DNA of 64,000 bases from Trypanosoma brucei (taxonomy: Eukaryota): the NCBI GenBank assembly GCA_000002445.1, contig CM000208.1, positions 2,496,001-2,560,000 on the forward strand, read 5' to 3'. The notes beneath the pieces were generated by a model. That model did not search any database, had not been told where the DNA came from, and saw only the letters and a program-made list of their open reading frames with translations. Each line of letters begins with the position of its first letter. Position 1 is the stretch's first letter. Below, one piece after another: positions 5,566 to 35,350 of this stretch. Made by a program: the position numbers and the translations under genes.

Positions 5566-8500
5566 CTAACGACTTCTATTTGACTGAATACGAGTAATCT
5601 CTGAGTACCCCTGTGTATTACTCACTTGATAGAGCACGTCTGCATTACTGAACATCCCATCTTTTAGGGACACAAGCAGAAATTGAGAAGAAGGGAAGTG
5701 TTTCTGTAGCATATTACCGATCCCCTGTGTATGACTTGGGTCAAGTGCGGCATCCACCTCATCAAGGATGTACATTGGTGCTTGACGCACACGTAGGATC
5801 GCTAAAATGAGACACAAAGCAAGAAGAGAACGTTGGCCACCACTCAATTCTGAGAGTGACTCCCGCTCCTTTCCATTGAACAAGACCTTAACCTGAAGAC
5901 CAGAAAGGTGACCGTGCTCGTTCCTCTCCTCCCGAAGCACCGCTGCAGCGCCAGGTAAGCACGTAGAAAACAACTTTGAAAACACGTTGCTAACAACCTC
6001 CACCATGCGATCAAGAGCCCGCCACTTCTTGTCCTCAATGCCGAGTATGCATTGCTGGATAGCGTCTCTGTCCTCACCCAGCACCGACCGCTGTTGCACA
6101 AGCTCATCGTATTCCTTCTTGCGTTCTTCATAGAGGATCAGTGCTTTCTTGTTTAGTCGCTTGGACATGGTCGAGGCATTAACCTCGGCCTCGCGCAACT
6201 CCGCCAACGTTTCCTGCGTTCGTTCCCGGTCCTCAAAGTAAAATGGTCCGTCACGGGGGCCAAACAAGTGTTGCTTCTCCTCAATCCAGGTATTGCGCCT
6301 CTCAGCCTCGGATATGAGCTTCTGCAACTCTTCCAATGACTTTGAGATTTCACGTACGTCCACCTCCGCATTTTTCACAAATCCCTCCAGTGACGCCTTC
6401 TTCACCACCAGTTGCTGAAGCTCCTGCTGGGTCTCTTCGATTTCCTTCTCAATGTTCTGACGTTGCTCCTCCGCCCTACATCTCTTGTCCACAACCTCCT
6501 GTAGTGACTTACTCGTGCTTTCGAAGCTCTTCGAAGCCTCATCACGAGCCTTCGTCTGTTGATGTATCTGCTCGTGCACCTCCACCAGTTTCTGCTCGAT
6601 ATCCGCTGCAGTTTGCGTCATTTCCGCTTCCACTCGCTCGAACTCCGCAGACCCTGATTCTTCCTCATGCACAAGGGCTGCGCACCGCTTTTGCGCTGCA
6701 CTCAGCTGCTCTTGCAGATCCTTGCGTACCTTGTCGGAGTCTAGATTCGCATACTTCTCCAAACGAGCTCTGCGTTCCTGAAGATCGTTTAGCATCGTTG
6801 TGAGTGCCTCATACTTTTGTCGCTCCTCCTTAAGTGAAGCCTGCAGCTCTTTCGATAGTCCCTCTTCTTCGTTTTCCACAAGCTGGAGCTTATGGGTGGC
6901 TATGCTTACCGCCTCCTCCGCCTTCGCATGCTCCTGAATCAGTGACCTATGTTCCCTAAGTTGAGCGTGTAAGCCTTCAAGTTCTTTTTCACGCTTCTCC
7001 ATCGTCACCCGTAGCGCCTCTACTGGGGCCTTACGCTTTTTATAAATAAGAACATCGGCAAATACGTTGCGTATATGTTTTTTTGACCCACCCGTCATGA
7101 GCCCCTTGGGCTCTACTACCTCACCGTCAAGCGTCACAGCCTTGCAGCGCACAGCAGAGCCATATGCAAGCTCTTGCGCCAGCTCCAACGTGGAACAAAT
7201 AAAAAAATTGCCAAAAACATAATCGGCGATGACACGATGCGCCTCATCCTTGACAACAGTAAGGTCCTTTGCGACAGCAACGAAGCCATTCATGCGATTG
7301 GCCATTCGCTTAGCTTCCTCCAGTTGGGAGTCGCTTATGCTTTTCGGCTGCGTAAGTGTGTTGAGTGGGAGAAAGGCTGTACGCTGGCGCAGTCCATGGC
7401 GTATAATCCGCTCGGCGACAATGTCGCTCGTGACAACCACACGCATCAGTTGTGACTGTGCACCTACTGTTAGGGCTATTGCGTATTTTTCCTCCTGAGG
7501 TGAGACAAGCTCCACGACGCGGCCCCAAATGTACTGCTCAATACCGGCGCAAGCACGCCGGTCGTATTCCAGATCAAGGCCACGCCCACCTGAACCGCCA
7601 CCTTGAGCCGACTCGCGTAGCATCGCATCATTGGCCTTCCAGTGCTCTGCCTTCAGGCGTGCAACCTCCTCTTGGAGGGCACGTGCCTGTTCTTCCAGTG
7701 GCTTGACATTGATATACCGTTTGGTGACAGAGTCAAGACAGTCCTGCGCAGACCTCAGCTCATTTCTAAGCCTGATAACCGTCCTCTCGCGGGCCTCTGA
7801 CTTCTCGGCCACAGATTTCTGTTGGTGTTCCAATTCCCTGATACGCTCCTCTCGCCGCCGCGCTTCTGCACTACTTTTAATGACCTGTCGTTCAATATCA
7901 GCCCTCTCCTCCTCCAGGGACATGCCAGACGCGCCGGCCCGAACACCCGAACCGTTTAACTGCAGCGACCGCTTCAATTTGGCGATGTTTTCTTTCTGCT
8001 CGTGAATGTTTCGAATCAGCTTCTCCCGTTGCTCTTGATACGCCTCAAACTGCTGCGCGCGACTCTTCTGCTGCTGTTTTTCCTCTTCGAGCTTCCGGGA
8101 CGCATCAGCTAGCTTCTTCAGGACCTTATCTAACCTTTCCAACTGTGCCTCCTCACGAGCCAACTGCAACTTCAAAGTACTCTCCTCTTCATGTAGCGCC
8201 ATGGCAGCCTCGGCGGGAGCTGCAAGAGTTGACTGCAACTGCATCAAGCGCTGTGTTGTCTCATCCTCAACGGAGGGAAAACTTCGCAACTGCTCCTTAG
8301 CCGCTGCTGTGTCGGACAGTAGTGACGTCCGGCGGGTACTCAACTCCCCTCGCCGCTTCCTGTGCTCCTCGTACTCAAAAGCTATACGAAACTTCCGCAT
8401 CTCCTCAATACCCTCACTCAATTGCACATACCGCTCATACTCCTCCTGGTCCGCTTTCATTGCGCGGAGCATAGGGCCTATTTGGGTCTCTAGGTTGGCA

Positions 8501-9093
8501 TCTATTTCCTCCATCTTTTTCTCCTTACTTCGTATCAAACTCTCAGCCGTTCGGCGACGGTGATCAAATGCTTTTGTCCCCACAGCCTCTTCGATAAGAG
8601 AAAGGATGTCCTCTGACCGCATGCCAATGAGTTTGTGCACGGTTCCCTGAAGCACCATAAAATGTGGATTGTCCACATTAAGGCTTATACTCTCAAAGAA
8701 GCGCTTGACTTTGCTTTGCACAGACACCGTATTGTTCAAGAAAAATTGTTGCTTGCCGCCGAGTTTGATCTGTCGCCCAACAGTAATAGTTGGATATTCC
8801 TCACAACTGTAGCCCGGTGGTGCGGTGCGAGGGTCATCGTTGATAAATTCGATTGTCACACGCGCCGCATGAACACCCGTTGTACCGGCACGGAATATAA
8901 GCTCACGCGGGTCCTCCGCCCTGACACGCTTGAGGTTTGTGATGCCCATCACAAAGCAAATTGCGTCGAATATGTTTGACTTGCCGCTTCCATTGAGACC
9001 CGTGATGGCGTTGAAATGCGGACTCAGATCATCAATAACCTTTCGGTGGGCATACGACTTGAATCCATCTATGACAATGCTCTTCACGCGCAT
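5566..9093 (-). CDS. SMC2: Structural maintenance of chromosomes protein 2 (condensin SMC2)
   Basis: N-terminal Walker A head (MRVKSIVIDGFKSYAHRKV..FNAITGLNGSGKSNIFDAICFVMGI). Long coiled coils and a hinge (GRVVELVSPQEEKYAIALTV). C-terminal signature/Walker B (LSGGQRSLLALCLILAILRVRQAPMYILDEVDAALD..HTQGIGNML) close to SMC2 orthologues. ORF track extends 61 codons upstream; start trimmed to MRVKS ATG at 9091..9093 (checked). Confidence 0.85.
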   Translation of the reverse strand: MRVKSIVIDGFKSYAHRKVIDDLSPHFNAITGLNGSGKSNIFDAICFVMGITNLKRVRAEDPRELIFRAGTTGVHAARVTIEFINDDPRTAPPGYSCEEYPTITVGRQIKLGGKQQFFLNNTVSVQSKVKRFFESISLNVDNPHFMVLQGTVHKLIGMRSEDILSLIEEAVGTKAFDHRRRTAESLIRSKEKKMEEIDANLETQIGPMLRAMKADQEEYERYVQLSEGIEEMRKFRIAFEYEEHRKRRGELSTRRTSLLSDTAAAKEQLRSFPSVEDETTQRLMQLQSTLAAPAEAAMALHEEESTLKLQLAREEAQLERLDKVLKKLADASRKLEEEKQQQKSRAQQFEAYQEQREKLIRNIHEQKENIAKLKRSLQLNGSGVRAGASGMSLEEERADIERQVIKSSAEARRREERIRELEHQQKSVAEKSEARERTVIRLRNELRSAQDCLDSVTKRYINVKPLEEQARALQEEVARLKAEHWKANDAMLRESAQGGGSGGRGLDLEYDRRACAGIEQYIWGRVVELVSPQEEKYAIALTVGAQSQLMRVVVTSDIVAERIIRHGLRQRTAFLPLNTLTQPKSISDSQLEEAKRMANRMNGFVAVAKDLTVVKDEAHRVIADYVFGNFFICSTLELAQELAYGSAVRCKAVTLDGEVVEPKGLMTGGSKKHIRNVFADVLIYKKRKAPVEALRVTMEKREKELEGLHAQLREHRSLIQEHAKAEEAVSIATHKLQLVENEEEGLSKELQASLKEERQKYEALTTMLNDLQERRARLEKYANLDSDKVRKDLQEQLSAAQKRCAALVHEEESGSAEFERVEAEMTQTAADIEQKLVEVHEQIHQQTKARDEASKSFESTSKSLQEVVDKRCRAEEQRQNIEKEIEETQQELQQLVVKKASLEGFVKNAEVDVREISKSLEELQKLISEAERRNTWIEEKQHLFGPRDGPFYFEDRERTQETLAELREAEVNASTMSKRLNKKALILYEERKKEYDELVQQRSVLGEDRDAIQQCILGIEDKKWRALDRMVEVVSNVFSKLFSTCLPGAAAVLREERNEHGHLSGLQVKVLFNGKERESLSELSGGQRSLLALCLILAILRVRQAPMYILDEVDAALDPSHTQGIGNMLQKHFPSSQFLLVSLKDGMFSNADVLYQVSNTQGYSEITRIQSNRSR

Positions 9094-10980
9094 ACTTCGA
9101 CTGTATGTGTGTTGCGCGTACAAGAGTATGATAAATAATATAGGAAGGAAAGACAGGGATAGAGATTTGGTGGGAATCAAACGATGAAATTGGTAACACA
9201 AGGATAGGGAAGCATAGACAGACGCATGACTATGGGGTTTGGGTATTCCCGAGGCGGTGGTGAGAATTTTGTGCACTCCTGCTGAAGGATGCTACACCTC
9301 GTTGCTGCGTATTTACGTATATTTGTTGTAAGCATCTGCCGTCACACGTCAAACCATTCAATTCTTGCCCTTTAATTCTGTTATGTCACGCGAACAAACG
9401 CAAGGCGCTCCCACACACCCACTCTCATTCATATCTCTCTCCATTGCCTCATCACTTTCATTATTTTCTTGTCGCTGAGTTGGTTGGTCGGGCGTAAAGA
9501 TGAAGGTGGACTGAAATAGCAATGGTGGGAAGTTGGTGTGACTGTGCACACAACTTCCATTGAAGCGTTTCAGCATTTAGAAAAAAAGGACAAGGGGTGG
9601 GGAAAAAAAGAAAAAGTGAACTGAAGTGAAGTAACGTGAAGTAAACAAGCTGCAAACTTCAACCTGCAATACAACAACAGATGCCAGCAAACCCCGTTCT
9701 GCAATTTGTCTTTCCCACTTCATCCTAATGAACTCACCTCATTCGTCTGCCGCCGTATGACCCCGACGTTACCATCAATGTTATTGTTATCATATTATTC
9801 ACCGCCATCGGCCCCCCACCCCAACACGCCTCCCAAACTCAGTAACAGTATCGCCCGTCACACACACGAACCGCATGATACAGCAACTTTTACCCATTGG
9901 TTTTGTATTCCTTTTTGATATTTACCCCCAACCGTCGTGTTACTCGTTACCGCGGACAGAGCAAATATCACGGTAATAACAACAAAAACGAAAATGCCGA
10001 AGGTGCAAAATAAAAGGTTATTGTCGTCGTCGCCGTTTCCCCACTTTTGAGCCCCATTTTATTTTTTGTTTTGTCTTCCTCCTTTCACCTGAAGGAAGAA
10101 ACCGAATAATTAATCGAAAGAACAATAAAATTGAAAAGAAAAAAGTTTTAAAAGCGCGATTGGCATCCTTTTCTCTCCAGCACCGCGCCTGCAAACGCAC
10201 AAAAAAGGAAAAACCGAAAAAAAAACGGAATTCTGGAGAAGAAAATGTCGCTACTTTATGTGGGTCACACTTTTGCAACAGTGTAAAGCAGTAGCCCGAC
10301 ACGAAAAAGCTAACTTTAAAAAAAAAAAAGTTACCTTGATTTCCCACCTCCACTTCTACCTTCCATCATTTCCCTCCTCATAATCCTCTCATGAACACAT
10401 CCATTTCCTTTCCTGTATCTCCTCTGTGACATCATCAGTATCATTATTACTGCTACCGCCGTCGTTATAATTTAGTCTCATTTTCAGCATTTCGCTTACT
10501 CACCCGCAAGAAGGCAAATGCCGTTAGCATTGTCCGGATGAAGTGAGCTCAGGAGGGAAATCACGGAGGAACAGGAAGAGGAGGAAGCTCAGGAATGGGG
10601 AAATCAAGAGGTAAGAACAGTTTTGCAAAAACTTTAAGAAAGGATAACGGCTACCAATAATCAAAACAACACAAGCAATCGCAACTGTGGATGGTGTTCA
10701 TAAACACAAACACACAGAAAAATGAAAGAAAAAAGCAACAAAAAACTGAAAAGAAACCTGTTAACCAGCAGAATTTTTTGTTCCATACCACCACCACGTG
10801 ACCTTCGATAACGCAACACACGACCGGTGACCAGCGTGATGTGAAGAAGGTGAAAAAAGAAACCAAGCAGATGCCGAGAAGGGACACACGTATAAGTGAA
10901 GAAAAAAAAGGAGCTGAAGTGGCGTGGACAGAAGGAGATAAGGGGGGTCTCAACATTCGGTCTCCACCTAACACGCACAG

Positions 10981-12801
10981 TCAAAACGTAAGAAATGGAT
11001 GTTTCAAAAGTTCCTCAGCCTCTGGGCGCTTCTTCGGATCTCGAATAAAGCACAATTCAAGGAAGCTCATCAGTTGCGGATCCAGATTATCCGGTATCTC
11101 CGTGGGGAGACCAGTCGAGTGCGCTATCTTATACACGGCAGCCCACATAGAATTGCACTCTGGCCACGGCGGCTTCCCGGTTAGCATCTCAACTACAGTA
11201 CACCCAACCGACCAAATGTCGCTCTTCATCCCGTAACCTCCAGCCTCGCCTTTGATAACTTCGGGCGCCATCCAATATGGCGTTCCAACCATCGTTTCAC
11301 AACCATGCGTTTTACTACATACATCATCAATAGTTTTGCTGCAACCGAAGTCTGCTAGTTTAATTATACCCTCCAGTGATACCAAAACGTTGTCCCCCTT
11401 GATGTCCCGGTGCACAATGCCACAGTCGTGAAGATACTTCACTCCGCACACTATCTGAAAGGTCCACTGTCGAACAGTGGGGAGAGGAATGGTTTTGAAC
11501 TTCTTCACGAAGCCGTTGAGGGAACCTCCACTTACAAATTCCATAAATATATTGAGCGTATTTTTCTCCCTGTCTTCCTGGCATCCATGATACTGAACAA
11601 TATTTGGGTGATTAAGACGCTTCATCAGGGCAATTTCATTGCGCAACTTGTCCATTTCGCTCCTGCTGGAAATGGATCCAAGCTCGATAACTTTACAGCA
11701 TACCGTACGCCCGTTTGTAAGTAGAGCCTCATACACTGCTCCAAAACTGCCTTTTCCAACAATCTTCAGCTGCCTCCAACCCTCCAAGTCCGCATCACTG
11801 AGAAACAGACGTTCCCGCCGCACCAGTGCGGTCTTCTCACTGGGGTTACCAGAAATATCGTTACCGTGTTCTACATTAGAAACCACGTTTGGATCATTCA
11901 CATCAAAGTCGCCATTGTGGCTGCCATACATACTGCAGTCGTCGATGCTCCCCAAGGAATTCAGCGTCCCGGGGTTATTGGATGTCCTTGAATCCGACGG
12001 GAAAAGACCCTCTCCGAGCATACGCAACTTCTCGGGGTCTAAACCCTCACAGACAGACAAATCAAGGGTACCGACAAAAGTCTCTATATCCGCAACGACT
12101 GCCTTATGGATTGCCTGAGTGTGGTCATGCTCGCCGTTGATGAAAACGCCAGCAAACCAATCACCATTCGCTAACCACTCGCAACCCTTTCCATGCTTGA
12201 CGCCATCTTTGAAAGAACCCACATACTTTGCACCATCCGCCCAGACATATGTCCCATTTCCATTGGGTTTGTCATTTGCAAAATCCCCCTCGTACACGTC
12301 ACCGTTGACACTGGTAATAACCCCTTTGCCCTCCTTCACGTTGTTTACAAACGTACCCTGAAAAACAACACCATTTGCCTCTATAAGCGTACCCTGCCCG
12401 TGACGAGCGTTCGCAAACCACTCGCCTTCGTAAACGTCGCCGCCAACGTACTCCATTTTCCCCCATCCCTGCCGCATGTCGTCAACCCACTCTCCAGAAT
12501 AAGTTCCGGTTTTGTCACTTAACACTCCGAACCCGTGTTGCACACCACACCTATACTCGCCCTCGTAGCGATCACCATCAGCCCACATGTACACTCCGCG
12601 GCCGTCTATGACATCATCCAGCCATCCTCCCACATACTCGTCACCACTGACCCAACGAGCCCGGCCAAAACCAGACATCCGCCCCTCCTCATCAACAGTT
12701 CCTATATAATATCCCTCCTCAAAGTCAATGCGAGTCTGCTTCCCTTGAGGTCCATCACCCTCGCAGTCACTCACAGAACCATGAGATTCTTGTGTACTCA
12801 T
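10981..12801 (-). CDS. MORN-repeat-containing serine/threonine protein kinase (STE group-like)
   Basis: About 9 N-terminal MORN repeats (YEGEW/YVGxFxxGxxHGxG pattern). C-terminal kinase domain: GKGSFGAVY (Gly loop), HRDIKGDNVLV (catalytic loop), DFGCSK (DFG), GTPYWMAPE (APE). Start trimmed to MSTQESHG ATG at 12799..12801; the longer ORF begins 10 codons upstream in a T-rich tract. Confidence 0.8.
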   Translation of the reverse strand: MSTQESHGSVSDCEGDGPQGKQTRIDFEEGYYIGTVDEEGRMSGFGRARWVSGDEYVGGWLDDVIDGRGVYMWADGDRYEGEYRCGVQHGFGVLSDKTGTYSGEWVDDMRQGWGKMEYVGGDVYEGEWFANARHGQGTLIEANGVVFQGTFVNNVKEGKGVITSVNGDVYEGDFANDKPNGNGTYVWADGAKYVGSFKDGVKHGKGCEWLANGDWFAGVFINGEHDHTQAIHKAVVADIETFVGTLDLSVCEGLDPEKLRMLGEGLFPSDSRTSNNPGTLNSLGSIDDCSMYGSHNGDFDVNDPNVVSNVEHGNDISGNPSEKTALVRRERLFLSDADLEGWRQLKIVGKGSFGAVYEALLTNGRTVCCKVIELGSISSRSEMDKLRNEIALMKRLNHPNIVQYHGCQEDREKNTLNIFMEFVSGGSLNGFVKKFKTIPLPTVRQWTFQIVCGVKYLHDCGIVHRDIKGDNVLVSLEGIIKLADFGCSKTIDDVCSKTHGCETMVGTPYWMAPEVIKGEAGGYGMKSDIWSVGCTVVEMLTGKPPWPECNSMWAAVYKIAHSTGLPTEIPDNLDPQLMSFLELCFIRDPKKRPEAEELLKHPFLTF

Positions 12802-13958: not shown

Positions 13959-16900
13959 CTACACCTTGCGACCCGAGTGATTAACGAAGGTTGCGCGGTT
14001 AGTCGTAACATACATCGAAGGGTCCACATGACGGACCTGTACTGCAGGTTTCCCAATGGGACGAGGAGGACATTGTACCTCAGGCCTGATAAACCTGTTG
14101 CGGTATTCGCTGCTTACACCTTGCATAGAAATGCTTGACTGTTTAACAGTCGGAGCAGCCTTTGGCATATAAGGTTTGCTGGCACCGTGTGCCTTGAAAT
14201 CTCTATGCGCGGTACTCACGTACATATCAGCATCTACATGACAAGGGCAGGAATAACCAACATTAGGGGCCTTTTTCCACTTTGACACACGTACTCCGTT
14301 ACCAGTTGGTTGATCGCCCACAGCCGCAGCAGCACACTCAGTAGTAGCTGCAACAGCCGCAGCAGCACCTCCATTACTCTCCCCACTTGCGACACACTTC
14401 ATATCAGTGAAGACATCAACCTTCTTGGATGTCACACCACCATCACTTTTACCTTTCACGACCTTCTTAACAACAATAGCATCAGCTTCAGATGAAGCAG
14501 TAAAGCTATGCCTCATAGACATAACAGATTCATCACCAAAGGAAGACTCCCTACACGAACTCTTATAACAAGAAGAATCATAGCGACAATACGAATCCTT
14601 TGCAGTTGTCCTAAAGTGGCCATCATCACCACCGCGACGTGACACTTTCACAACTTCCTCACGGAGCACATCACGCTTATATGCGGCAGGGTCAATTGGC
14701 GCATACGATTCTGCAGTGGTTGAGCGGGAGTGACTGGGATCAACATGACGAGGGCCCGTTACCTCCTCTTCCTCACGGAGCACATCACGCTTATATGCGG
14801 CAGGGTCAATTGGCGCATACGATTCTGCAGTGGTTGAGCGGAAGTGACTGGGGTCAACATGACGAGGGCCCGTTACCTCCTCTTCCTCACGGAGCACATC
14901 ACGCTTATATGCGGCAGGGTCAATTGGCGCATACGATTCTGCAGTGGTTGAGCGGAAGTGACTGGGATCAACATGACGAGGGCCCGTTGCCTCCTCTTCC
15001 TCACGGAGCACATCACGCTTATATGCGGCAGGGTCAATTGGCGCATACGATTCTGCAGTGGTTGAGCGCAAGTGACTGGGATCAACATGACGAGGGCCCG
15101 TTGCCTCCTCTTCCTCACGGAGCACATCACGCTTATATGCGGCAGGGTCAATTGGCGCATACGATTCTGCAGTGGTTGAGCGGAAGTGACTGGGATCAAC
15201 ATGACGAGGGCCCGTTGCCTCCTCTTCCTCACGGAGCACATCACGCTTATATGCGGCAGGGTCAATTGGCGCATACGATTCTGCAGTGGTTGAGCGGAAG
15301 TGACTGGGATCAACATGACGAGGGCCCGTTGCCTCCTCTTCCTCACGGAGCACATCACGCTTATATGCGGCAGGGTCAATTGGCGCATACGATTCTGCAG
15401 TGGTTGAGCGGAAGTGACTGGGATCAACATGACGAGGGCCCGTTACCTCCTCTTCCTCACGGAGCACATCACGCTTATATGCGGCAGGGTCAATTGGTGC
15501 ATACGATTCTGCAGTGGTTGAGCGGAAGTGACTGGGGTCAACATGACGAGGGCCCGTTACCTCCTCTTCCTCACGGAGCACATCACGCTTATATGCGGCA
15601 GGGTCAATTGGCGCATACGATTCTGCAGTGGTTGAGCGGAAGTGACTGGGATCAACATGACGAGGGCCCGTTACCTCCTCTTCCTCACGGAGCACATCAC
15701 GCTTATATGCGGCAGGGTCAATTGGTGCATACGATTCTGCAGTGGTTGAGCGGAAGTGACTGGGATCAACATGACGAGGGCCCGTTACCTCCTCTTCCTC
15801 ACGGAGCACATCACGCTTATATGCGGCAGGGTCAATTGGTGCATACGATTCTGCAGTGGTTGAGCGGAAGTGACTGGGGTCAACATGACGAGGGCCCGTT
15901 ACCTCCTCTTCCTCACGGAGCACATCACGCTTATATGCGGCAGGGTCAATTGGTGCATACGATTCTGCAGTGGTTGAGCGGAAGTGACTGGGGTCAACAT
16001 GACGAGGGCCCGTTACCTCCTCTTCCTCACGGAGCACATCACGCTTATATGCGGCAGGGTCAATTGGCGCATACGATTCTGCAGTGGTTGAGCGGAAGTG
16101 ACTGGGATCAACATGACGAGGGCCCGTTACCTCCTCTTCCTCACGGAGCACATCACGCTTATATGCGGCAGGGTCAATTGGCGCATACGATTCTGCAGTG
16201 GTTGAGCGGAAGTGACTGGGATCAACATGACGAGGGCCCGTTACCTCCTCTTCCTCACGGAGCACATCACGCTTATATGCGGCAGGGTCAATTGGCGCAT
16301 ACGATTCTGCAGTGGTTGAGCGGAAGTGACTGGGGTCAACATGACGAGGGCCCGTTACCTCCTCTTCCTCACGGAGCACATCACGCTTATATGCGGCAGG
16401 GTCAATTGGCGCATACGATTCTGCAGTGGTTGAGCGGAAGTGACTGGGGTCAACATGACGAGGGCCCGTTACCTCCTCTTCCTCACGGAGCACATCACGC
16501 TTATATGCGGCAGGGTCAATTGGCGCATACGATTCTGCAGTGGTTGAGCGGAAGTGACTGGGGTCAACATGACGAGGGCCCGTTACCTCCTCTTCCTCAC
16601 GGAGCACATCACGCTTATATGCGGCAGGGTCAATTGGCGCATACGATTCTGCAGTGGTTGAGCGGAAGTGACTGGGGTCAACATGACGAGGGCCCGTTAC
16701 CTCCTCTTCCTCACGGAGCACATCACGCTTATATGCGGCAGGGTCAATTGGTGCATACGATTCTGCAGTGGTTGAGCGGAAGTGACTGGGGTCAACATGA
16801 CGAGGGCCCGTTACCTCCTCTTCCTCACGGAGCACATCACGCTTATATGCGGCAGGGTCAATTGGCGCATACGATTCTGCAGTGGTTGAGCGGAAGTGAC

Positions 16901-19900
16901 TGGGGTCAACATGACGAGGGCCCGTTACCTCCTCTTCCTCACGGAGCACATCACGCTTATATGCGGCAGGGTCAATTGGCGCATACGATTCTGCAGTGGT
17001 TGAGCGGAAGTGACTGGGATCAACATGACGAGGGCCCGTTACCTCCTCTTCCTCACGGAGCACATCACGCTTATATGCGGCAGGGTCAATTGGTGCATAC
17101 GATTCTGCAGTGGTTGAGCGGAAGTGACTGGGGTCAACATGACGAGGGCCCGTTACCTCCTCTTCCTCACGGAGCACATCACGCTTATATGCGGCAGGGT
17201 CAATTGGCGCATACGATTCTGCAGTGGTTGAGCGGAAGTGACTGGGATCAACATGACGAGGGCCCGTTACCTCCTCTTCCTCACGGAGCACATCACGCTT
17301 ATATGCGGCAGGGTCAATTGGCGCATACGATTCTGCAGTGGTTGAGCGGAAGTGACTGGGGTCAACATGACGAGGGCCCGTTACCTCCTCTTCCTCACGG
17401 AGCACATCACGCTTATATGCGGCAGGGTCAATTGGTGCATACGATTCTGCAGTGGTTGAGCGGAAGTGACTGGGGTCAACATGACGAGGGCCCGTTACCT
17501 CCTCTTCCTCACGGAGCACATCACGCTTATATGCGGCAGGGTCAATTGGTGCATACGATTCTGCAGTGGTTGAGCGGAAGTGACTGGGATCAACATGACG
17601 AGGGCCCGTTGCCTCCTCTTCCTCACGGAGCACATCACGCTTATATGCGGCAGGGTCAATTGGCGCATACGATTCTGCAGTGGTTGAGCGGAAGTGACTG
17701 GGATCAACATGACGAGGGCCCGTTACCTCCTCTTCCTCACGGAGCACATCACGCTTATATGCGGCAGGGTCAATTGGTGCATACGATTCTGCAGTGGTTG
17801 AGCGGAAGTGACTGGGGTCAACATGACGAGGGCCCGTTGCCTCCTCTTCCTCACGGAGCACATCACGCTTATATGCGGCAGGGTCAATTGGCGCATACGA
17901 TTCTGCAGTGGTTGAGCGGAAGTGACTGGGATCAACATGACGAGGGCCCGTTACCTCCTCTTCCTCACGGAGCACATCACGCTTATATGCGGCAGGGTCA
18001 ATTGGCGCATACGATTCTGCAGTGGTTGAGCGGAAGTGACTGGGATCAACATGACGAGGGCCCGTTACCTCCTCTTCCTCACGGAGCACATCACGCTTAT
18101 ATGCGGCAGGGTCAATTGGCGCATACGATTCTTCAGTGGTTGAGCGGAAGTGACTGGGATCAACATGACGAGGGCCCGTTACCTCCTCTTCCTCACGGAG
18201 CACATCACGCTTATATGCGGCAGGGTCAATTGGTGCATACGATTCTGCAGTGGTTGAGCGGAAGTGACTGGGATCAACATGACGAGGGCCCGTTACCTCC
18301 TCTTCCTCACGGAGCACATCACGCTTATATGCGGCAGGGTCAATTGGTGCATGCGATTCTGCAGTGGTTGAGCGGAAGTGACTGGGGTCAACATGACGAG
18401 GGCCCGTTACCTCCTCTTCCTCACGGAGCACATCACGCTTATATGCGGCAGGGTCAATTGGTGCATACGATTCTGCAGTGGTTGAGCGGAAGTGACTGGG
18501 GTCAACATGACGAGGGCCCGTTACCTCCTCTTCCTCACGGAGCACATCACGCTTATATGCGGCAGGGTCAATTGGCGCATACGATTCTGCAGTGGTTGAG
18601 CGGAAGTGACTGGGGTCAACATGACGAGGGCCCGTTACCTCCTCTTCCTCACGGAGCACATCACGCTTATATGCGGCAGGGTCAATTGGCGCATACGATT
18701 CTGCAGTGGTTGAGCGGAAGTGACTGGGGTCAACATGACGAGGGCCCGTTACCTCCTCTTCCTCACGGAGCACATCACGCTTATATGCGGCAGGGTCAAT
18801 TGGCGCATACGATTCTGCAGTGGTTGAGCGGAAGTGACTGGGGTCAACATGACGAGGGCCCGTTACCTCCTCTTCCTCACGGAGCACATCACGCTTATAT
18901 GCGGCAGGGTCAATTGGCGCATACGATTCTGCAGTGGTTGAGCGGAAGTGACTGGGATCAACATGACGAGGGCCCGTTACCTCCTCTTCCTCACGGAGCA
19001 CATCACGCTTATATGCGGCAGGGTCAATTGGTGCATACGATTCTGCAGTGGTTGAGCGGAAGTGACTGGGGTCAACATGACGAGGGCCCGTTACCTCCTC
19101 TTCCTCACGGAGCACATCACGCTTATATGCGGCAGGGTCAATTGGCGCATACGATTCTGCAGTGGTTGAGCGGAAGTGACTGGGATCAACATGACGAGGG
19201 CCCGTTACCTCCTCTTCCTCACGGAGCACATCACGCTTATATGCGGCAGGGTCAATTGGTGCATACGATTCTGCAGTGGTTGAGCGGAAGTGACTGGGGT
19301 CAACATGACGAGGGCCCGTTGCCTCCTCTTCCTCACGGAGCACATCACGCTTATATGCGGCAGGGTCAATTGGCGCATACGATTCTGCAGTGGTTGAGCG
19401 GAAGTGACTGGGATCAACATGACGAGGGCCCGTTGCCTCCTCTTCCTCACGGAGCACATCACGCTTATATGCGGCAGGGTCAATTGGTGCATACGATTCT
19501 GCAGTGGTTGAGCGGAAGTGACTGGGATCAACATGACGAGGGCCCGTTACCTCCTCTTCCTCACGGAGCACATCACGCTTATATGCGGCAGGGTCAATTG
19601 GTGCATACGATTCTGCAGTGGTTGAGCGGAAGTGACTGGGGTCAACATGACGAGGGCCCGTTACCTCCTCTTCCTCACGGAGCACATCACGCTTATATGC
19701 GGCAGGGTCAATTGGTGCATACGATTCTGCAGTGGTTGAGCGGAAGTGACTGGGGTCAACATGACGAGGGCCCGTTACCTCCTCTTCCTCACGGAGCACA
19801 TCACGCTTATATGCGGCAGGGTCAATTGGTGCATACGATTCTGCAGTGGTTGAGCGGAAGTGACTGGGATCAACATGACGAGGGCCCGTTACCTCCTCTT

Positions 19901-20276
19901 CCTCACGGAGCATATCACGCTTATATGCGGCAGGGTCAATTGGTGCATACGATTCTGCAGTGGTTGAGCGGAAGTGACTGGGATCAACATGACGAGGGCC
20001 CGTTACCTCCTCTTCCTCACGGAGCATATCACGCTTATATGCGGCAGGGTCAATTGGTGCATACGATTCTTTCATTGTGGAAAGTATTTCTTTATAATTT
20101 TGTTTATTTGCTTTTTGTTGTTTCATATAAAGGTTTTCAGTATTGTGCGGCAAACTTTTTTTTTTGTTTTTTATGTCGATGCAATCGTAGACCTCTGCTC
20201 TTTCTTTATCTCTTTGTGGATATGGTTGCGGATCATTCCACTTATAGTCTGCTTCTAATCCCTTTGTGCCAGGCAT
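13959..20276 (-). CDS. Giant repetitive protein with about 47 tandem 38-aa repeats; microtubule-associated repetitive protein (MARP)-like
   Basis: 2105-aa ORF. Short K/N-rich N-terminus, then about 47 near-identical repeats (ESYAPIDPAAYKRDVLREEEEVTGPRHVDPSHFRSTTA). About 230-aa non-repetitive C-terminal tail with degenerate repeat relics (HVDADMYVSTAHRDF, RHVDPSMYVTTNRAT). From memory, T. brucei MARP-1/2 are giant MAPs built of 38-aa repeats; name assignment is by recollection only. Confidence 0.8.
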   Translation of the reverse strand: MPGTKGLEADYKWNDPQPYPQRDKERAEVYDCIDIKNKKKSLPHNTENLYMKQQKANKQNYKEILSTMKESYAPIDPAAYKRDMLREEEEVTGPRHVDPSHFRSTTAESYAPIDPAAYKRDMLREEEEVTGPRHVDPSHFRSTTAESYAPIDPAAYKRDVLREEEEVTGPRHVDPSHFRSTTAESYAPIDPAAYKRDVLREEEEVTGPRHVDPSHFRSTTAESYAPIDPAAYKRDVLREEEEVTGPRHVDPSHFRSTTAESYAPIDPAAYKRDVLREEEEATGPRHVDPSHFRSTTAESYAPIDPAAYKRDVLREEEEATGPRHVDPSHFRSTTAESYAPIDPAAYKRDVLREEEEVTGPRHVDPSHFRSTTAESYAPIDPAAYKRDVLREEEEVTGPRHVDPSHFRSTTAESYAPIDPAAYKRDVLREEEEVTGPRHVDPSHFRSTTAESYAPIDPAAYKRDVLREEEEVTGPRHVDPSHFRSTTAESYAPIDPAAYKRDVLREEEEVTGPRHVDPSHFRSTTAESYAPIDPAAYKRDVLREEEEVTGPRHVDPSHFRSTTAESYAPIDPAAYKRDVLREEEEVTGPRHVDPSHFRSTTAESYAPIDPAAYKRDVLREEEEVTGPRHVDPSHFRSTTAESHAPIDPAAYKRDVLREEEEVTGPRHVDPSHFRSTTAESYAPIDPAAYKRDVLREEEEVTGPRHVDPSHFRSTTEESYAPIDPAAYKRDVLREEEEVTGPRHVDPSHFRSTTAESYAPIDPAAYKRDVLREEEEVTGPRHVDPSHFRSTTAESYAPIDPAAYKRDVLREEEEATGPRHVDPSHFRSTTAESYAPIDPAAYKRDVLREEEEVTGPRHVDPSHFRSTTAESYAPIDPAAYKRDVLREEEEATGPRHVDPSHFRSTTAESYAPIDPAAYKRDVLREEEEVTGPRHVDPSHFRSTTAESYAPIDPAAYKRDVLREEEEVTGPRHVDPSHFRSTTAESYAPIDPAAYKRDVLREEEEVTGPRHVDPSHFRSTTAESYAPIDPAAYKRDVLREEEEVTGPRHVDPSHFRSTTAESYAPIDPAAYKRDVLREEEEVTGPRHVDPSHFRSTTAESYAPIDPAAYKRDVLREEEEVTGPRHVDPSHFRSTTAESYAPIDPAAYKRDVLREEEEVTGPRHVDPSHFRSTTAESYAPIDPAAYKRDVLREEEEVTGPRHVDPSHFRSTTAESYAPIDPAAYKRDVLREEEEVTGPRHVDPSHFRSTTAESYAPIDPAAYKRDVLREEEEVTGPRHVDPSHFRSTTAESYAPIDPAAYKRDVLREEEEVTGPRHVDPSHFRSTTAESYAPIDPAAYKRDVLREEEEVTGPRHVDPSHFRSTTAESYAPIDPAAYKRDVLREEEEVTGPRHVDPSHFRSTTAESYAPIDPAAYKRDVLREEEEVTGPRHVDPSHFRSTTAESYAPIDPAAYKRDVLREEEEVTGPRHVDPSHFRSTTAESYAPIDPAAYKRDVLREEEEVTGPRHVDPSHFRSTTAESYAPIDPAAYKRDVLREEEEVTGPRHVDPSHFRSTTAESYAPIDPAAYKRDVLREEEEVTGPRHVDPSHFRSTTAESYAPIDPAAYKRDVLREEEEVTGPRHVDPSHFRSTTAESYAPIDPAAYKRDVLREEEEATGPRHVDPSHFRSTTAESYAPIDPAAYKRDVLREEEEATGPRHVDPSHFRSTTAESYAPIDPAAYKRDVLREEEEATGPRHVDPSHLRSTTAESYAPIDPAAYKRDVLREEEEATGPRHVDPSHFRSTTAESYAPIDPAAYKRDVLREEEEVTGPRHVDPSHFRSTTAESYAPIDPAAYKRDVLREEEEVTGPRHVDPSHSRSTTAESYAPIDPAAYKRDVLREEVVKVSRRGGDDGHFRTTAKDSYCRYDSSCYKSSCRESSFGDESVMSMRHSFTASSEADAIVVKKVVKGKSDGGVTSKKVDVFTDMKCVASGESNGGAAAAVAATTECAAAAVGDQPTGNGVRVSKWKKAPNVGYSCPCHVDADMYVSTAHRDFKAHGASKPYMPKAAPTVKQSSISMQGVSSEYRNRFIRPEVQCPPRPIGKPAVQVRHVDPSMYVTTNRATFVNHSGRKV
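14657..20069. repeat. Tandem array of about 47.5 copies of a 114-bp unit (>98% identical), coding for the 38-aa MARP-like repeat
   Basis: Exact 114-bp periodicity visible in the raw sequence (e.g. ...cacggagcacatcacgcttatatgcggcagggtcaattggcgcatacgattctgcagtggttgagcggaagtgactgggatcaacatgacgagggcccgttacctcctcttcct...). Three common variable positions only: g/a in gatcaac/ggtcaac, c/t in ggcgcatac/ggtgcatac, a/g in gttacct/gttgcct. Confidence 0.95.
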
Positions 20277-20606
20277 CCTTCCTTTGGTATTTTTGATTCC
20301 TATTTATTGTAAGTAGTTTTTACACTTATATTTCTGAAGGTAAGATGCTTCTTTTTCTTAGGTGATTTATGGATATTGAGTAGAGAAATTATATCCTGCA
20401 GAGGGGTGTGTGGTAAATTATCTTACAGCGAATATTCTAATTTTTTTTCATCATTTGGGGTTGAGTTAGCGGATATTAAGGTATACTTTTGGTGTTCAGT
20501 CATCACAGTTCCTTGTGGAAGGTGTTACTCATGCAAATACACGTGACGTTAGGCGTTTGAGAAACTGCCTCCTTTTCTACATCTACTGACTGGCAACCGC
20601 TGGTCG

Positions 20607-21179
20607 TTACATTTGGGTTCTCGCGCCACAGTTCCTTCCCGCGGACAACTGTCTTTGCACGTGGTGGTTTAAAATGGTGACATCCATAGCAGACTTTGTT
20701 GTGCGAAATCGGTCAACCATGGCATCATCTACTGTTGGTTGGTTTACTGGTTTGGACAGTTTCCCAGTTAGTGCAAAGCGGTCTACGCCGCTGAGCGTGT
20801 TTAACGGTTTGCAATGGTGCTTTGGCTTCCCATACCTGCTATCAATCAGGTATCGCTGTGTGGCGCCATAGTCTTTGCTTGTTGCCACAACTTCATCGAC
20901 TGTTGGTAGGCCGCTTCCAAATATAAGGCTCTTCCCGAGTCCACGCTGCCGCAACATCGGCCGGACAGCTGTAACACATGGGGTAGAGTAATCAGCCTTA
21001 TAAACTGAGGACGGCAGCGGAGATTGGCCGTCTACTGCGATCGTGAATTTGCCATGCGCCTCATTGATGCGTGCGTCGAACCAGTTATCTACGAGGACAC
21101 CGCTGTTGTAATGGTTGTCAAAACATGGAAGAACTCGCTTGTCCCCGGTGTGCATGCTGGCGCCTGCAACCGATTCCAC
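20607..21179 (-). CDS. Hypothetical protein (kinetoplastid-type, no recognisable domain)
   Basis: 190-aa minus-strand ORF in the same orientation as all neighbours, with balanced composition. No motif recognised. Confidence 0.4.
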   Translation of the reverse strand: MESVAGASMHTGDKRVLPCFDNHYNSGVLVDNWFDARINEAHGKFTIAVDGQSPLPSSVYKADYSTPCVTAVRPMLRQRGLGKSLIFGSGLPTVDEVVATSKDYGATQRYLIDSRYGKPKHHCKPLNTLSGVDRFALTGKLSKPVNQPTVDDAMVDRFRTTKSAMDVTILNHHVQRQLSAGRNCGARTQM

Positions 21180-24027: not shown

Positions 24028-25551
<1,524 letters not shown>

Positions 25552-25883: not shown

Positions 25884-26864
25884 TTACTTGAAGACGCCAC
25901 GAGGCATCTTGGGACCATTCAACGGGAACGGGGTAATATCCTCGAAGTATCTCACGTGAAACTCATTGGCACGGTCTTGCACCGCTCGCACAGCACCCTG
26001 TCGACCGTTATAGAAGCCCATCACACGAACTACCAGCTCCACTTTCTCACCGCGACCCATTGGGCGCCCTTCGCTCGCCCGCATCTCACGCAATTTTGGG
26101 AGTAAATCGTTAAGGTACATGCTGGTCACTTGGTGACCGTTGTCGGTGGAGCCCTCGCTTCGGAAACCGCGATCGCCACCCTTCAGTCCTCTGTTACCAG
26201 CCGTATACGTATTCAGGATACGTTTTCCCTCGTAGGTGTAGGCAACCGCATATGTGTTACGTCGCCGCGAAACAAGGTAGAGGAAAACCATGTCACTGGT
26301 ATACCTCGGCATTTCCCCCCACATGTCAAGTTGGCTGTAATCTACTGGTCCCTGCGTCATTTCACTGTTTTTTACGAGAGAATAACCAAAACGAGTCTTG
26401 AAATAGTCTCCCCCAAGGACGCGGGGAGGAGGCACGGCTCCATCATTGCTGATTGCATGTTCACTTGTCTCTTCAGGGCAACTGCGAGCCTTCATGCGAT
26501 GCTCCTCCTCCTTTTCATACCACATACGCTCATTGAAGACGCGCTGGTGCTGCATCACATCATTCTCTGCGAGCTGCCGCATCTCCTCCCTGATCGACTC
26601 CTCGCTGCTTCGTGCTGACATATTCCGCCAATCCATCTGTGGAAGCTGCGGGGAAATAAAGGAATGAGCCTGGCCGGAAGCGTTATCAACATCTTGCTGC
26701 GTCAGTCGGTCATTAGTAGACCGAATCAGAAAATGGTTGAAATACTGTTGGCCGCCTTGTTGTGGTTTCAAAAGCATAGGAACACGACGGTACTTGTCAG
26801 GGAACATGCCAGCCCGTGGTCGGGGTTTTCCCCGACGTAAGAAGGTGACTGATTTCTGCATCAT
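25884..26864 (-). CDS. Mitochondrial ribosomal protein uS11-like (putative)
   Basis: 326-aa ORF with Arg-rich N-terminus (MMQKSVTFLRRGKPRPRAG). C-terminal region (GEKVELVVRVMGFYNGRQGAVRAVQD..FHVRYFEDITPFPLNGPKMPRGVFK) resembles the uS11 C-terminus (..V.V.G.G.GR..A.RAL...G..I..I.DVTPIPHNGCRPPK.RR). Confidence 0.5.
   Translation of the reverse strand: MMQKSVTFLRRGKPRPRAGMFPDKYRRVPMLLKPQQGGQQYFNHFLIRSTNDRLTQQDVDNASGQAHSFISPQLPQMDWRNMSARSSEESIREEMRQLAENDVMQHQRVFNERMWYEKEEEHRMKARSCPEETSEHAISNDGAVPPPRVLGGDYFKTRFGYSLVKNSEMTQGPVDYSQLDMWGEMPRYTSDMVFLYLVSRRRNTYAVAYTYEGKRILNTYTAGNRGLKGGDRGFRSEGSTDNGHQVTSMYLNDLLPKLREMRASEGRPMGRGEKVELVVRVMGFYNGRQGAVRAVQDRANEFHVRYFEDITPFPLNGPKMPRGVFK

Positions 26865-33057: not shown

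Positions 33058-33534
<477 letters not shown>

Positions 33535-33965: not shown

Positions 33966-34442
<477 letters not shown>

Positions 34443-34873: not shown

Positions 34874-35350
<477 letters not shown>

What the first reader, a model, noticed from the sequence alone, without database searches (positions are those of the whole stretch)
13959..20276. Giant MARP-like gene: about 47 near-perfect 114-bp/38-aa tandem repeats, with degenerate relic repeats in the C-terminal tail
A 5.4-kb block of >98%-identical 114-bp units encodes ESYAPIDPAAYKRDVLREEEEVTGPRHVDPSHFRSTTA about 47 times. Only three positions vary commonly, and two of them are synonymous (gat/gac Asp, gcg/gca Ala); the third gives Val/Ala. 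The non-repetitive C-terminal 230 aa still carries diverged repeat relics (GHFRTTAKDSY, HVDADMYVSTAHRDF, RHVDPSMYVTTNRAT). That pattern (homogenised core, decayed edges) is the classic signature of concerted evolution by unequal exchange. From memory, 38-aa-repeat giant MAPs (MARP-1/2) decorate subpellicular microtubules in T. brucei. Arrays this uniform are routinely collapsed in assemblies, so the real copy number and protein size are probably larger. The sparse substitutions along the array could serve as a ruler for unequal-crossover history.
Basis: partly seen in the sequence, partly recalled or inferred. Interest (0 to 1): 0.6.

Follow-up and report, generated by a model that had tools for sequence, protein, structure and literature searches.

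The report
Trypanosoma brucei MARP repeat gene
This is the long-known African-trypanosome MARP gene, a giant cytoskeletal protein built from about 47 near-identical 38-residue microtubule-binding repeats. It is ordinary, except that this repeat type sits where other assemblies carry the sister gene MARP-1, so the array is probably misplaced in this assembly.

Summary
Window 20276..13959 (- strand) is one 2105-aa ORF with a 69-aa N-terminus, 47 full 114-bp/38-aa units, one half unit and a 231-aa tail. Eight of 114 nucleotide positions vary among units and three vary commonly.

The flanking genes and 99.9% identity to T. equiperdum place the window on T. brucei-group chromosome 10. The gene belongs to the MARP family, described in 1988-1994. 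Its repeats were shown experimentally to be a microtubule-binding motif. It is also known as KHAP2/KHAP3/BBP268, and its T. cruzi homologue is antigen 36.

I confirmed concerted evolution directly. Units differ by 1.55 nt within this array and by 3.67 nt from the T. b. gambiense array, with one array-wide fixed difference.

- The last ~95 aa are not decaying relics. They form a domain conserved across the genus.
- The repeat is the MARP-2 type, but the locus is the one that three other assemblies, and the published 3196-aa/374-kDa Tb927.10.10360, assign to MARP-1. The switch lies inside a 217-bp segment shared by both genes' upstream regions. I read this as a probable mis-join (about 0.7), so copy number and unit order here are unreliable.

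Novelty: already known. Interest: low.

The parts
13959..20276 (-). Complete MARP coding sequence: 2105 aa plus stop, 237.5 kDa, pI 5.3.
   Evidence: ORF list and translation; mass; homologues named microtubule-associated protein in T. grayi, T. theileri and T. cruzi.
20070..20276 (-). Unique N-terminal domain, 69 aa (MPGTKGLEADYKWN...STMK), basic (pI 9.2). It is the MARP-2-type N-terminus.
   Evidence: Same N-terminus, with 6 of 69 residues different, heads the MARP-2-type array of T. b. gambiense L001:3091-9825. It is unrelated to the MARP-1 N-terminus MYEKKKQQ....
14712..20069 (-). 47 full 114-bp/38-aa units, consensus ESYAPIDPAAYKRDVLREEEEVTGPRHVDPSHFRSTTA. Each unit is acidic (net charge about -3).
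14655..14711 (-). Half unit (ESYAPIDPAAYKRDVLREE) where the array runs into the tail. The homology shared by MARP-1 and MARP-2 genes resumes here at PIDPAAYKRD.
14508..14627 (-). Strongly diverged extra unit in the tail (DDGHFRTTAKDSYCRYDSSCYKSSCRESSFGDESVMSMRH).
   Evidence: Smith-Waterman score against a unit dimer is 63, versus 20.5 +/- 4.1 for shuffles (z=10.3).
13962..14255 (-). Conserved C-terminal domain (YSCPCHVDADMYVSTAHRDFKAH ... SEYRNRFIRPE ... VRHVDPSMYVTTNRATF), inside a basic tail (pI 9.5, net charge about +13).
   Evidence: Invariant residues across 6 trypanosome sequences. The terminal motif matches the repeat with z=4.3; the CPCH motif alone reaches only z=1.7. C-terminal domains are reported to bind microtubules (Affolter 1994, as cited in 10.1101/2020.10.07.330316).
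14100..14141 (-). QSSISMQGVSSEYR, identical to a published MARP1/2/BBP268 phosphopeptide that responds to casein-kinase pathway perturbation.
   Evidence: Exact string located in the window; peptide listed in PMC12222847 Table 1.
20391..20607 (-). 217-bp intergenic segment directly after the stop of the upstream 182-aa gene, ending in a polypyrimidine tract plus AG (CCCCTCTGCAG). It is duplicated upstream of both MARP genes. Within it the window switches from the MARP-1-locus context to MARP-2 sequence.
   Evidence: Alignment A2; BLAST breakpoints.
20277..20390 (-). MARP-2-specific 5' leader between the shared segment and the ATG.
   Evidence: Matches the T. b. gambiense MARP-2 contig and not the sequence found at this position in L001, L002 or L004.
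20607..21155 (-). Upstream neighbour: conserved 182-aa hypothetical gene, a synteny anchor.
   Evidence: The T. grayi homologue sits in the same position.
10981..12801 (-). Downstream neighbour: MORN-repeat protein kinase (606 aa), a synteny anchor.
   Evidence: Pfam Pkinase plus MORN; same neighbour in L001, L002, L009 and L010.

Best explanation
The feature is a MARP (microtubule-associated repetitive protein) gene of a Trypanosoma brucei-group parasite on chromosome 10. It carries the MARP-2-type 38-residue repeat.

How the protein works:
- Shown by others: the 38-aa units are themselves a microtubule-binding motif. The protein decorates the subpellicular microtubule corset and the basal body, and associates with KHARON. 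Joint RNAi of both MARPs slows growth about 50-fold by 120 h.
- Reported: the basic, conserved C-terminal domain also binds microtubules.
- Inferred here: the protein is an extended, largely unfolded polyvalent strap. Tens of identical acidic units each contact the repeating tubulin lattice, the basic C-terminus anchors it, and together they stabilise or bridge corset microtubules.

How the DNA behaves: the array is kept uniform by concerted evolution, meaning unequal exchange or gene conversion between units. This is shown here by an array-wide fixed difference and by neighbouring units being more alike than units in shuffled order.

Caveat on the assembly (about 0.7 confidence): the MARP-2 leader, N-terminus and array occupy the ancestral MAP locus, where other assemblies carry MARP-1. 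The joint lies in a 217-bp sequence shared by both genes. The most likely cause is an assembly mis-join, so the copy number of 47.5 and the order of unit variants should not be trusted.
For: Anatomy.

Organism and locus:
- Neighbours are a 14-copy H2B array, a mitochondrial carrier, MCM, trypanothione-reductase-like oxidoreductase, DEAD helicase, the 182-aa gene, MORN kinase, SMC, TPR/ANAPC3, Tctex and a metallophosphoesterase.
- The upstream flank is 99.9% identical to T. equiperdum OVI.
- Several proteins are identical to T. equiperdum or T. b. gambiense proteins.

Family:
- Best hits are trypanosome 'microtubule-associated protein' entries.
- The tail is 97% identical to that of the T. b. 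gambiense MARP-1-type gene, in line with the published 95% identical C-termini.
- The unit is 19/38 identical to the MARP-1-type unit, matching the published '~50% identical'.

Function from the literature:
- PMC2289396 abstract: repeats are a novel microtubule-binding motif.
- 10.1101/2020.10.07.330316: localisation, KHARON association, RNAi phenotype.
- PMC12222847: CK1.2 substrate, and a phosphopeptide present in this ORF.

Disorder: the AF2 single-sequence model has mean pLDDT 35.6. There is no Pfam family and no PDB relative.

Concerted evolution: within-array differences 1.55 and 1.16 versus 3.67 between arrays. nt48 is fixed differently in the two arrays. Adjacent units differ by 1.24 versus 1.55 for shuffled order, p=0.005.

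Misplacement:
- T. equiperdum OVI (L004), T. equiperdum IVM-t1 (L002) and T. b. gambiense (L001) all continue from the 182-aa gene into the MARP-1 N-terminus and HVDESHFLTTT repeats.
- The window diverges from them at about 20391, at the end of the shared 217-bp segment.
- Tb927.10.10360 is published as 3196 aa and 374 kDa. That fits 75 MARP-1-type units (3198 aa, 375.1 kDa), not MARP-2-type units (about 362 kDa at that length).
- 54 MARP-2-type units give 267.9 kDa, matching BBP268/Tb927.10.10280.
- The MARP upstream of the procyclin locus is called MARP2, but no EP or GPEET repeat lies in the 14 kb downstream here.
Against: - Microtubule binding of this exact unit type was not tested here. 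The published binding experiments were done on MARP-1, so I assume the MARP-2-type unit behaves the same way.
- I could not read the body of Hemphill 1992 or Affolter 1994. The assignment of HVDESHFLTTT to MARP-1 rests on a full-text index hit in a MARP-1 paper and on the mass arithmetic.
- The AF2 run had no alignment, so low confidence is weak evidence for disorder.
- Against the mis-join sub-claim: the window is contiguous with no Ns. Its N-terminus and array consensus differ from the T. b. gambiense MARP-2 contig (97% identity, 6 of 69 residues), so it could be a distinct genuine copy. In T. grayi the syntenic locus carries MARP-2-like repeats. I never obtained a bona fide procyclin-side MARP-2 locus for comparison.
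Confidence: 0.88

Rival explanations
1. The arrangement in the window is real. In this strain an inter-locus gene conversion or double crossover, using the shared 217-bp upstream segment and the ~95%-identical C-terminal region as homology arms, replaced the MARP-1 leader, N-terminus and array at the ancestral locus with MARP-2-type sequence.
For: - The sequence is contiguous with no gaps.
- Both junctions fall in sequence shared by the paralogues, which is also where real recombination would occur.
- The window copy is not identical to the T. b. gambiense MARP-2 contig: 97% identity, a different array consensus, and nt48 fixed differently.
- Four window-specific substitutions cluster in 110 bp of the C-terminal region, at 14520, 14515, 14427 and 14410.
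- NCBI lists two TREU927 proteins with MARP-2-like identity to Ag36, of 2105 and 2257 aa.
Against: - Three other Trypanozoon assemblies have MARP-1 here.
- The published Tb927.10.10360 (3196 aa, 374 kDa) has MARP-1-type composition.
- No MARP-1-type repeat occurs anywhere in the 64 kb.
- Near-identical 5-kb arrays with shared flanks are a classic source of mis-joins.
Confidence: 0.25
2. The gene is MARP-1, as the locus identifier Tb927.10.10360 and its position would suggest.
For: Its position between the DEAD helicase/182-aa gene and the MORN kinase is the one occupied by MARP-1-type genes elsewhere and is called MARP-1 in the KHARON papers.
Against: The repeat unit is only 19/38 identical to the HVDESHFLTTT/YKPIDPSEYRQ unit found in the MARP-1 paper and at this locus in other assemblies. 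The N-terminus is unrelated to MYEKKKQQ....
Confidence: 0.04
3. The repeat array exists mainly as an immunodominant B-cell decoy antigen rather than as a structural microtubule binder.
For: MARP and its T. cruzi homologue Ag36 are used as serodiagnostic repetitive antigens.
Against: - The protein is intracellular and cytoskeletal.
- The repeats bind microtubules in vitro and in transfected mammalian cells.
- RNAi gives growth and morphology defects in culture, where there is no immune pressure.
- The core HVDPxHFRST...Y.P[IV]DP.AYKR is conserved across the genus.
Confidence: 0.07
4. The real gene is the 1885-aa ORF on the + strand (14639..20296).
For: It is a long open frame.
Against: It is open only because the unit lacks stops in that frame. 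Its product (LPHGAHHAYMRQGQLAHTILQWLSGSDWDQHDEGPLPP, repeated) has no start context, and the homologues found match the - strand product. Every other ORF of 250 aa or more in the window lies on the - strand, except one at 24223..25149 that lies inside the oxidoreductase gene.
Confidence: 0.01

Closest known systems
MARP-2 of T. brucei (Tb927.10.10280; KHAP3; BBP268)
   Same: It has the 38-aa near-identical tandem units, a short unique N-terminus and the conserved C-terminal domain. The repeat type is the one that is 50% identical to the MARP-1 unit. The N-terminus matches that of the T. b. gambiense MARP-2-type contig. A model with 54 such units gives 267.9 kDa, the published mass.
   Different: Published MARP-2 lies immediately upstream of the EP/PAG1 procyclin locus. 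This copy lies between the 182-aa gene and the MORN kinase, with no procyclin within 14 kb. It has 47.5 units (237.5 kDa), not about 54.
MARP-1 of T. brucei (Tb927.10.10360; KHAP2)
   Same: Same chromosomal position and flanking genes. Same architecture. The C-terminal tail is 97% identical.
   Different: The repeat unit is 19/38 identical, the N-terminus is unrelated and the 5' leader differs. The published size is 3196 aa and 374 kDa, against 2105 aa and 237.5 kDa here.
T. cruzi antigen 36 / MAP (GenBank M21331 family), plus the T. grayi and T. theileri MAPs
   Same: These are homologous 38-aa units (24/38 identical to T. cruzi, 26/38 to T. grayi) with the same conserved C-terminal domain. 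The T. grayi gene sits in the same synteny block.
   Different: The annotated copies are much shorter or less uniform, with interspersed degenerate units. T. cruzi has many dispersed copies.
Leishmania KHAP2
   Same: It is reported as the MARP-1 orthologue with 38-aa repeats, it is a KHARON partner on subpellicular microtubules, and it is needed for amastigote cytokinesis.
   Different: It was not recovered by my single-sequence searches. Its sequence is unresolved in the genome because of the repeats.
Tau / MAP2 / MAP4 microtubule-binding repeats (analogy only)
   Same: They are tandem units of similar length (31-38 aa) that bind the repeating microtubule surface.
   Different: There is no sequence relation and the charge is opposite (these units are acidic). 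MARP-1 binds tubulin regions other than the C-terminal tails. MARPs have tens of units rather than 3-4.

Membership tests
MARP family (T. brucei microtubule-associated repetitive proteins) | The protein consists largely of tandem, near-identical 38-aa units, about 50 or more copies. | tested here: met
   47 full units plus one half unit at exact 38-aa spacing, 98.6% mean nucleotide identity.
MARP family (T. brucei microtubule-associated repetitive proteins) | [quoted passage not shown] | tested here: met
   69-aa N-terminus and 231-aa tail. The tail is 97% identical to the tail attached to MARP-1-type repeats in T. b. gambiense.
MARP family (T. brucei microtubule-associated repetitive proteins) | Repeat units of the two paralogues are about 50% identical. 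| tested here: met
   19/38 identities between this unit and the HVDESHFLTTT-type unit.
MARP family (T. brucei microtubule-associated repetitive proteins) | Binds microtubules and decorates the subpellicular corset. | not testable with these tools
   Literature only. The published phosphopeptide QSSISMQGVSSEYR maps exactly to this ORF.
MARP-2 specifically | The repeat is the non-MARP-1 type. | tested here: met
   The MARP-1 strings HVDESHFLTTT and YKPIDPSEYRQ occur in PMC2289396 and are absent from the window. This unit is the other type. I could not see the published MARP-2 unit itself.
MARP-2 specifically | The gene lies directly upstream of the EP/PAG1 procyclin locus. | tested here: not met
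   No EP or GPEET repeat anywhere in the window. The downstream genes are MORN kinase, SMC, TPR, Tctex and a metallophosphoesterase.
MARP-1 specifically | Repeat unit MRHVDESHFLTTTHEAYKPIDPSEYRQKRTVGEEVTTD and N-terminus MYEKKKQQ... | tested here: not met
MARP-1 specifically | Position between the 182-aa gene/DEAD helicase and the MORN kinase (Tb927.10.10360). | tested here: met
   Same flanking genes as L001, L002, L004 and L009.
Concerted evolution of a tandem array | Units are more alike within an array than between orthologous arrays, with array-wide fixed differences. | tested here: met
   Differences of 1.55 and 1.16 within arrays versus 3.67 between them. nt48 is fixed C here and T in T. 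b. gambiense; nt57 and nt65 are nearly fixed. Caveat: both arrays come from assemblies of uncertain fidelity.

The most novel reading that the evidence does not exclude
The source strain genuinely carries a MARP-2-type leader, N-terminus and array at the ancestral MAP locus. It would have been installed by a conversion tract of 6 kb or more from the procyclin-side paralogue. The strain would then have two MARP-2-type genes and no MARP-1 repeat type, making it a natural paralogue replacement in an essential cytoskeletal component.
Probability: 0.15. Interest if true: 0.4.

Novelty: already known. Interest (0 to 1): 0.15.

Why it matters
There is little new biology here. MARPs and their near-identical 38-aa repeats were published in 1988-1994 and have since been studied as KHARON partners, basal-body proteins, kinase substrates and diagnostic antigens.

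The practical value is a caution. In this sequence version the array type, copy number and unit order at this locus are probably not those of the real chromosome. The following should therefore be checked against a long-read assembly:
- Any use of the array as a ruler for unequal crossover.
- Any protein mass or peptide assignment.
- Any tagging or RNAi design.
- Any MARP-1 versus MARP-2 naming based on this sequence.

Two small positive results may be useful. One is direct evidence of array-wide fixation between T. brucei subspecies. The other is that this position is the ancestral MAP locus, shared with T. grayi.

Tried and rejected
- **Exact look-up of the 2105-aa protein** in the 15-billion-protein collection: absent.
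- **Look-ups of the window's MORN kinase and 182-aa proteins**, and of my first guess at the metallophosphoesterase start: no exact record. Look-ups of P0006 (TREU927-named) and P0012 (T. congolense) also failed.
- **Reaching the procyclin-side MARP locus** in another assembly: not achieved, so I could not compare with a bona fide MARP-2 C-terminus. The T. equiperdum OVI contig ends 455 bp after the 593-aa gene.
- **Paralogue of the 182-aa gene** upstream of the other MARP locus: none found. The idea came from 20 nt of the T. b. gambiense MARP-2 contig that end in ...ATGTAA.
- **N-terminal homology** between the MARP-2 or MARP-1 N-termini and those of T. grayi or P0009: not significant (z<=0.8), so I dropped that claim.
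- **The CPCHVDADMYVSTAHRDF motif as a repeat relic**: not significant on its own (z=1.7, p=0.08). It is supported only by its likeness to the terminal motif.
- **Pfam and PDB sequence searches**: no family and no structure.
- **AF2 single-sequence model**: mean pLDDT 35.6, so no fold search was run.
- **Bacterial promoter/terminator scan**: irrelevant for a trypanosome polycistronic unit, and it found fewer sites than shuffled sequence.
- **Peptide-string search of the literature** for the MARP-2-type unit: no paper holds it.
- **Reading Hemphill 1992**: only the abstract and references were available.

Full report
**1. Observation**

Tandem Repeats Finder reports one array at 14654-20070 with period 114, 47.5 copies, 98% matches and no indels. 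It lies inside a 2105-aa ORF on the - strand, 20276..13959. Taken in register, the protein has four parts:
- A 69-aa unique N-terminus.
- 47 full 38-aa units at exact spacing.
- A half unit, ESYAPIDPAAYKRDVLREE.
- A 231-aa tail.

The consensus unit ESYAPIDPAAYKRDVLREEEEVTGPRHVDPSHFRSTTA occurs 34 times unchanged. Eight of 114 nucleotide positions vary among the 47 units. Three vary commonly: nt12 (GCA/GCG, 20:27), nt87 (GAT/GAC, 24:23) and nt65 (Val/Ala, 39:8). The rest are a V15M shared by the first two units and four singletons, all non-synonymous.

**2. Where the window comes from**

All ORFs of 250 aa or more lie on the - strand, except two + strand frames that sit inside - strand genes. 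This fits one trypanosomatid polycistronic unit.

In gene order, the neighbours are 14 tandem histone H2B genes (33.1-45.5 kb), a mitochondrial carrier, MCM, a 492-aa trypanothione-reductase-like oxidoreductase, a DEAD helicase and a 182-aa gene. Then comes the repeat gene, followed by a MORN-repeat kinase, SMC, TPR/ANAPC3, Tctex and a metallophosphoesterase.

The oxidoreductase, SMC, TPR, Tctex and metallophosphoesterase products are identical to T. equiperdum OVI proteins. The oxidoreductase is also identical in T. b. gambiense DAL972 and T. equiperdum IVM-t1. The upstream 3.6 kb is 99.9% identical to T. equiperdum OVI. The window is therefore Trypanozoon chromosome 10.

A TREU927 'putative MAP' of exactly 2105 aa is listed in Table 4 of PMC12114266. 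I infer, but cannot prove, that the window is the GenBank version of T. b. brucei TREU927.

**3. What it is**

Homologues are trypanosome proteins named 'microtubule-associated protein' (T. grayi, T. theileri, T. cruzi), a T. b. gambiense fragment, and a 440-aa T. congolense-like protein from metaclust.

[quoted passage not shown] Both are made of more than 50 near-identical 38-aa units with short unique ends. Their repeats are about 50% identical to each other and their C-termini about 95% identical (citing Schneider 1988, Hemphill 1992, Affolter 1994).

This ORF matches that architecture. Its unit is 19/38 identical to the other unit type, MRHVDESHFLTTTHEAYKPIDPSEYRQKRTVGEEVTTD, found in T. 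b. gambiense and T. equiperdum. Its tail is 97% identical to theirs.

The strings HVDESHFLTTT and YKPIDPSEYRQ occur in the full text of the MARP-1 paper PMC2289396. So the other type is MARP-1 and this one is the MARP-2 type. The MARP-2-type unit is also the one closer to other species:

| Compared with | MARP-2-type unit | MARP-1-type unit |
|---|---|---|
| T. cruzi Ag36 | 24/38 | 16/38 |
| T. grayi | 26/38 | 18/38 |
| T. congolense-like | 29/38 | 17/38 |

The family is small. phmmer of the tail against 1.84 billion representatives gave 8 hits, and those I inspected all carry the trypanosome MAP repeat or tail motifs. There is no Pfam family and no solved relative.

**4. How it works**

Shown by others:
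- The 38-aa repeats are a microtubule-binding motif in vitro and in transfected mammalian cells. They bind tubulin regions other than the C-terminal tails used by Tau and MAP2.
- The C-terminal domains bind microtubules. The proteins decorate the subpellicular corset and basal body and associate with KHARON. Joint RNAi reduces bloodstream-form numbers about 50-fold by 120 h, with some aberrant multi-flagellated cells.
- MARP2/BBP268 is a CK1.2 substrate. The phosphopeptide QSSISMQGVSSEYR is present here at 14141-14100.

Seen here:
- Units are acidic (about -3 each), while the N-terminus (pI 9.2) and tail (pI 9.5, about +13) are basic.
- The AF2 model has no confident fold (mean pLDDT 35.6 from a single sequence, which is weak evidence).

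Inferred: the protein is an extended polyvalent strap. Many identical units each contact the repeating tubulin lattice, and the conserved basic C-terminus provides a second anchor.

**5. DNA dynamics**

I compared the 47 units with the 57 MARP-2-type units of T. b. gambiense (L001:3091-9825). Mean pairwise differences are 1.55 within the window array, 1.16 within the gambiense array and 3.67 between them. nt48 is C in every unit here and T in every unit there, and nt57 and nt65 are nearly fixed differently. That is concerted evolution, demonstrated rather than assumed.

Adjacent units are more alike than units in shuffled order (1.24 versus 1.55, p=0.005). All four nt12 x nt87 combinations occur, which is consistent with local duplication plus exchange.

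**6. The tail**

The first about 40 tail residues are a strongly diverged unit (z=10.3). The terminal RHVDPSMYVTTNRATF also matches the unit (z=4.3). The CPCHVDADMYVSTAHRDF motif is not significant alone (z=1.7).

The last about 95 aa are conserved across six trypanosome sequences. The invariant residues include Y-x-C-P-C-H, Y, S-T, H, D, K-A-H and D-P-S. These are conserved functional elements derived anciently from repeat-like sequence, not eroding array edges.

**7. A conflict with other assemblies**

In T. equiperdum OVI (L004), T. equiperdum IVM-t1 (L002) and T. b. gambiense (L001), the 182-aa gene is followed by the MARP-1 leader, the MARP-1 N-terminus (MYEKKKQQ...) and MARP-1-type repeats. 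In L002 these run contiguously into the C-terminus and the MORN kinase.

In T. b. gambiense a separate contig, bounded by two 100-N gaps, carries the MARP-2 leader, N-terminus and 57 units. Its first 20 nt differ from the locus-A context.

Alignment A2 shows a 217-bp segment (window 20607-20391) that starts right after the 182-aa gene's stop and ends in CCCCTCTGCAG. This segment is shared by both MARP upstream regions. The window follows the locus-A context into the segment and leaves it on MARP-2 sequence.

Downstream, homology common to both genes resumes at PIDPAAYKRD. Window-specific substitutions cluster at 14520-14410, after which the window matches OVI.

Published figures give Tb927.10.10360 as 3196 aa and 374 kDa. 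My models compare as follows:

| Model | Length | Mass |
|---|---|---|
| 75 MARP-1-type units | 3198 aa | 375.1 kDa |
| MARP-2-type units at about 3196 aa | about 3196 aa | about 362 kDa |
| 54 MARP-2-type units | 2371 aa | 267.9 kDa |

The last row matches the mass of BBP268/Tb927.10.10280.

The MARP upstream of the procyclin EP/PAG1 locus is called MARP2, yet no procyclin repeat occurs in this window. In T. grayi the single MAP gene sits in exactly this synteny block, so this is the ancestral locus.

Taken together, I put about 0.7 on the window's array being a mis-join through shared flanks. I put about 0.15-0.25 on a genuine inter-paralogue conversion in the source strain. Either way, the copy number of 47.5 and the unit order are not dependable. 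Other representations range from 11 collapsed units (679 aa, L002) through 57 or more (T. b. gambiense, open-ended) to TREU927 entries of 4119 and 4880 aa.

**8. Verdict**

This is a correct and careful observation of a gene family known since 1988. The useful by-products are:
- The direct demonstration of array-wide fixation between subspecies.
- The recognition that the tail motifs form a conserved domain.
- The warning that this sequence version places the MARP-2-type array at the MARP-1 locus.

Noticed in passing
window 33058-45485 (- strand): Fourteen tandem histone H2B genes (112 aa each, unit about 905-908 bp). Twelve products are identical. Tandem Repeats Finder missed the array because the period exceeds 500 bp. 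GC is about 0.55 with positive AT skew across the block.
   Followed up: partly
window 14639-20296 (+ strand): A 1885-aa antisense ORF runs through the whole array because the unit has no stop codon in that frame (product LPHGAHHAYMRQGQLAHTILQWLSGSDWDQHDEGPLPP, repeated). It is a by-product of the repeat, not a gene.
   Followed up: yes
window 14180-14255 (- strand; YSCPCHVDADMYVSTAHRDFKAH): C-x-C-H followed by two more invariant histidines is conserved in all six trypanosome MAP/MARP tails aligned. It could be a metal-binding site in the microtubule-binding C-terminal domain. This is untested.
   Followed up: no
L010 (T. grayi JMRU01000067.1) 10001-11320 and flanks: The T. grayi MAP gene lies in the same gene order: glutaredoxin, MCM, a 323-aa gene, trypanothione reductase, DEAD helicase, a 187-aa gene, MAP, MORN kinase, SMC, TPR. 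The window's position is therefore the ancestral MAP locus, and the ancestral repeat resembles the MARP-2/Ag36 type. MARP-1 appears to be the derived form.
   Followed up: partly
L001 (T. b. gambiense FN554973.1) 566-11251: The DAL972 assembly has three gene calls at this locus (725, 2245 and 416 aa) separated by two 100-N gaps. A MARP-1 5' piece, a MARP-2 contig and a MARP-1 3' piece are interleaved, and two of them are annotated 'hypothetical protein, unlikely'. This looks like reference-guided placement of a MARP-2 contig inside a gap in MARP-1.
   Followed up: partly
L002 (T. equiperdum IVM-t1 CM010681.1) 15257-17296: MARP-1 is represented by only 679 aa (about 11 units). It also has a 33-bp deletion in the alanine-rich part of the tail relative to the window, OVI and T. 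b. gambiense. This is a likely example of repeat collapse in an assembly.
   Followed up: partly
window 20391-20607 (- strand): A 217-bp intergenic segment is duplicated upstream of both MARP genes and ends in a polypyrimidine tract plus AG. It is plausibly the shared trans-splicing/polyadenylation control region retained from the duplication that created the two genes.
   Followed up: partly
window 25884-26864 and 30251-31288 (- strand): Two conserved ORFs (326 and 345 aa) have no confident Pfam family. The first has only a sub-threshold Ribosomal_S11 match (18.2 bits, cut-off 25.1).
   Followed up: no
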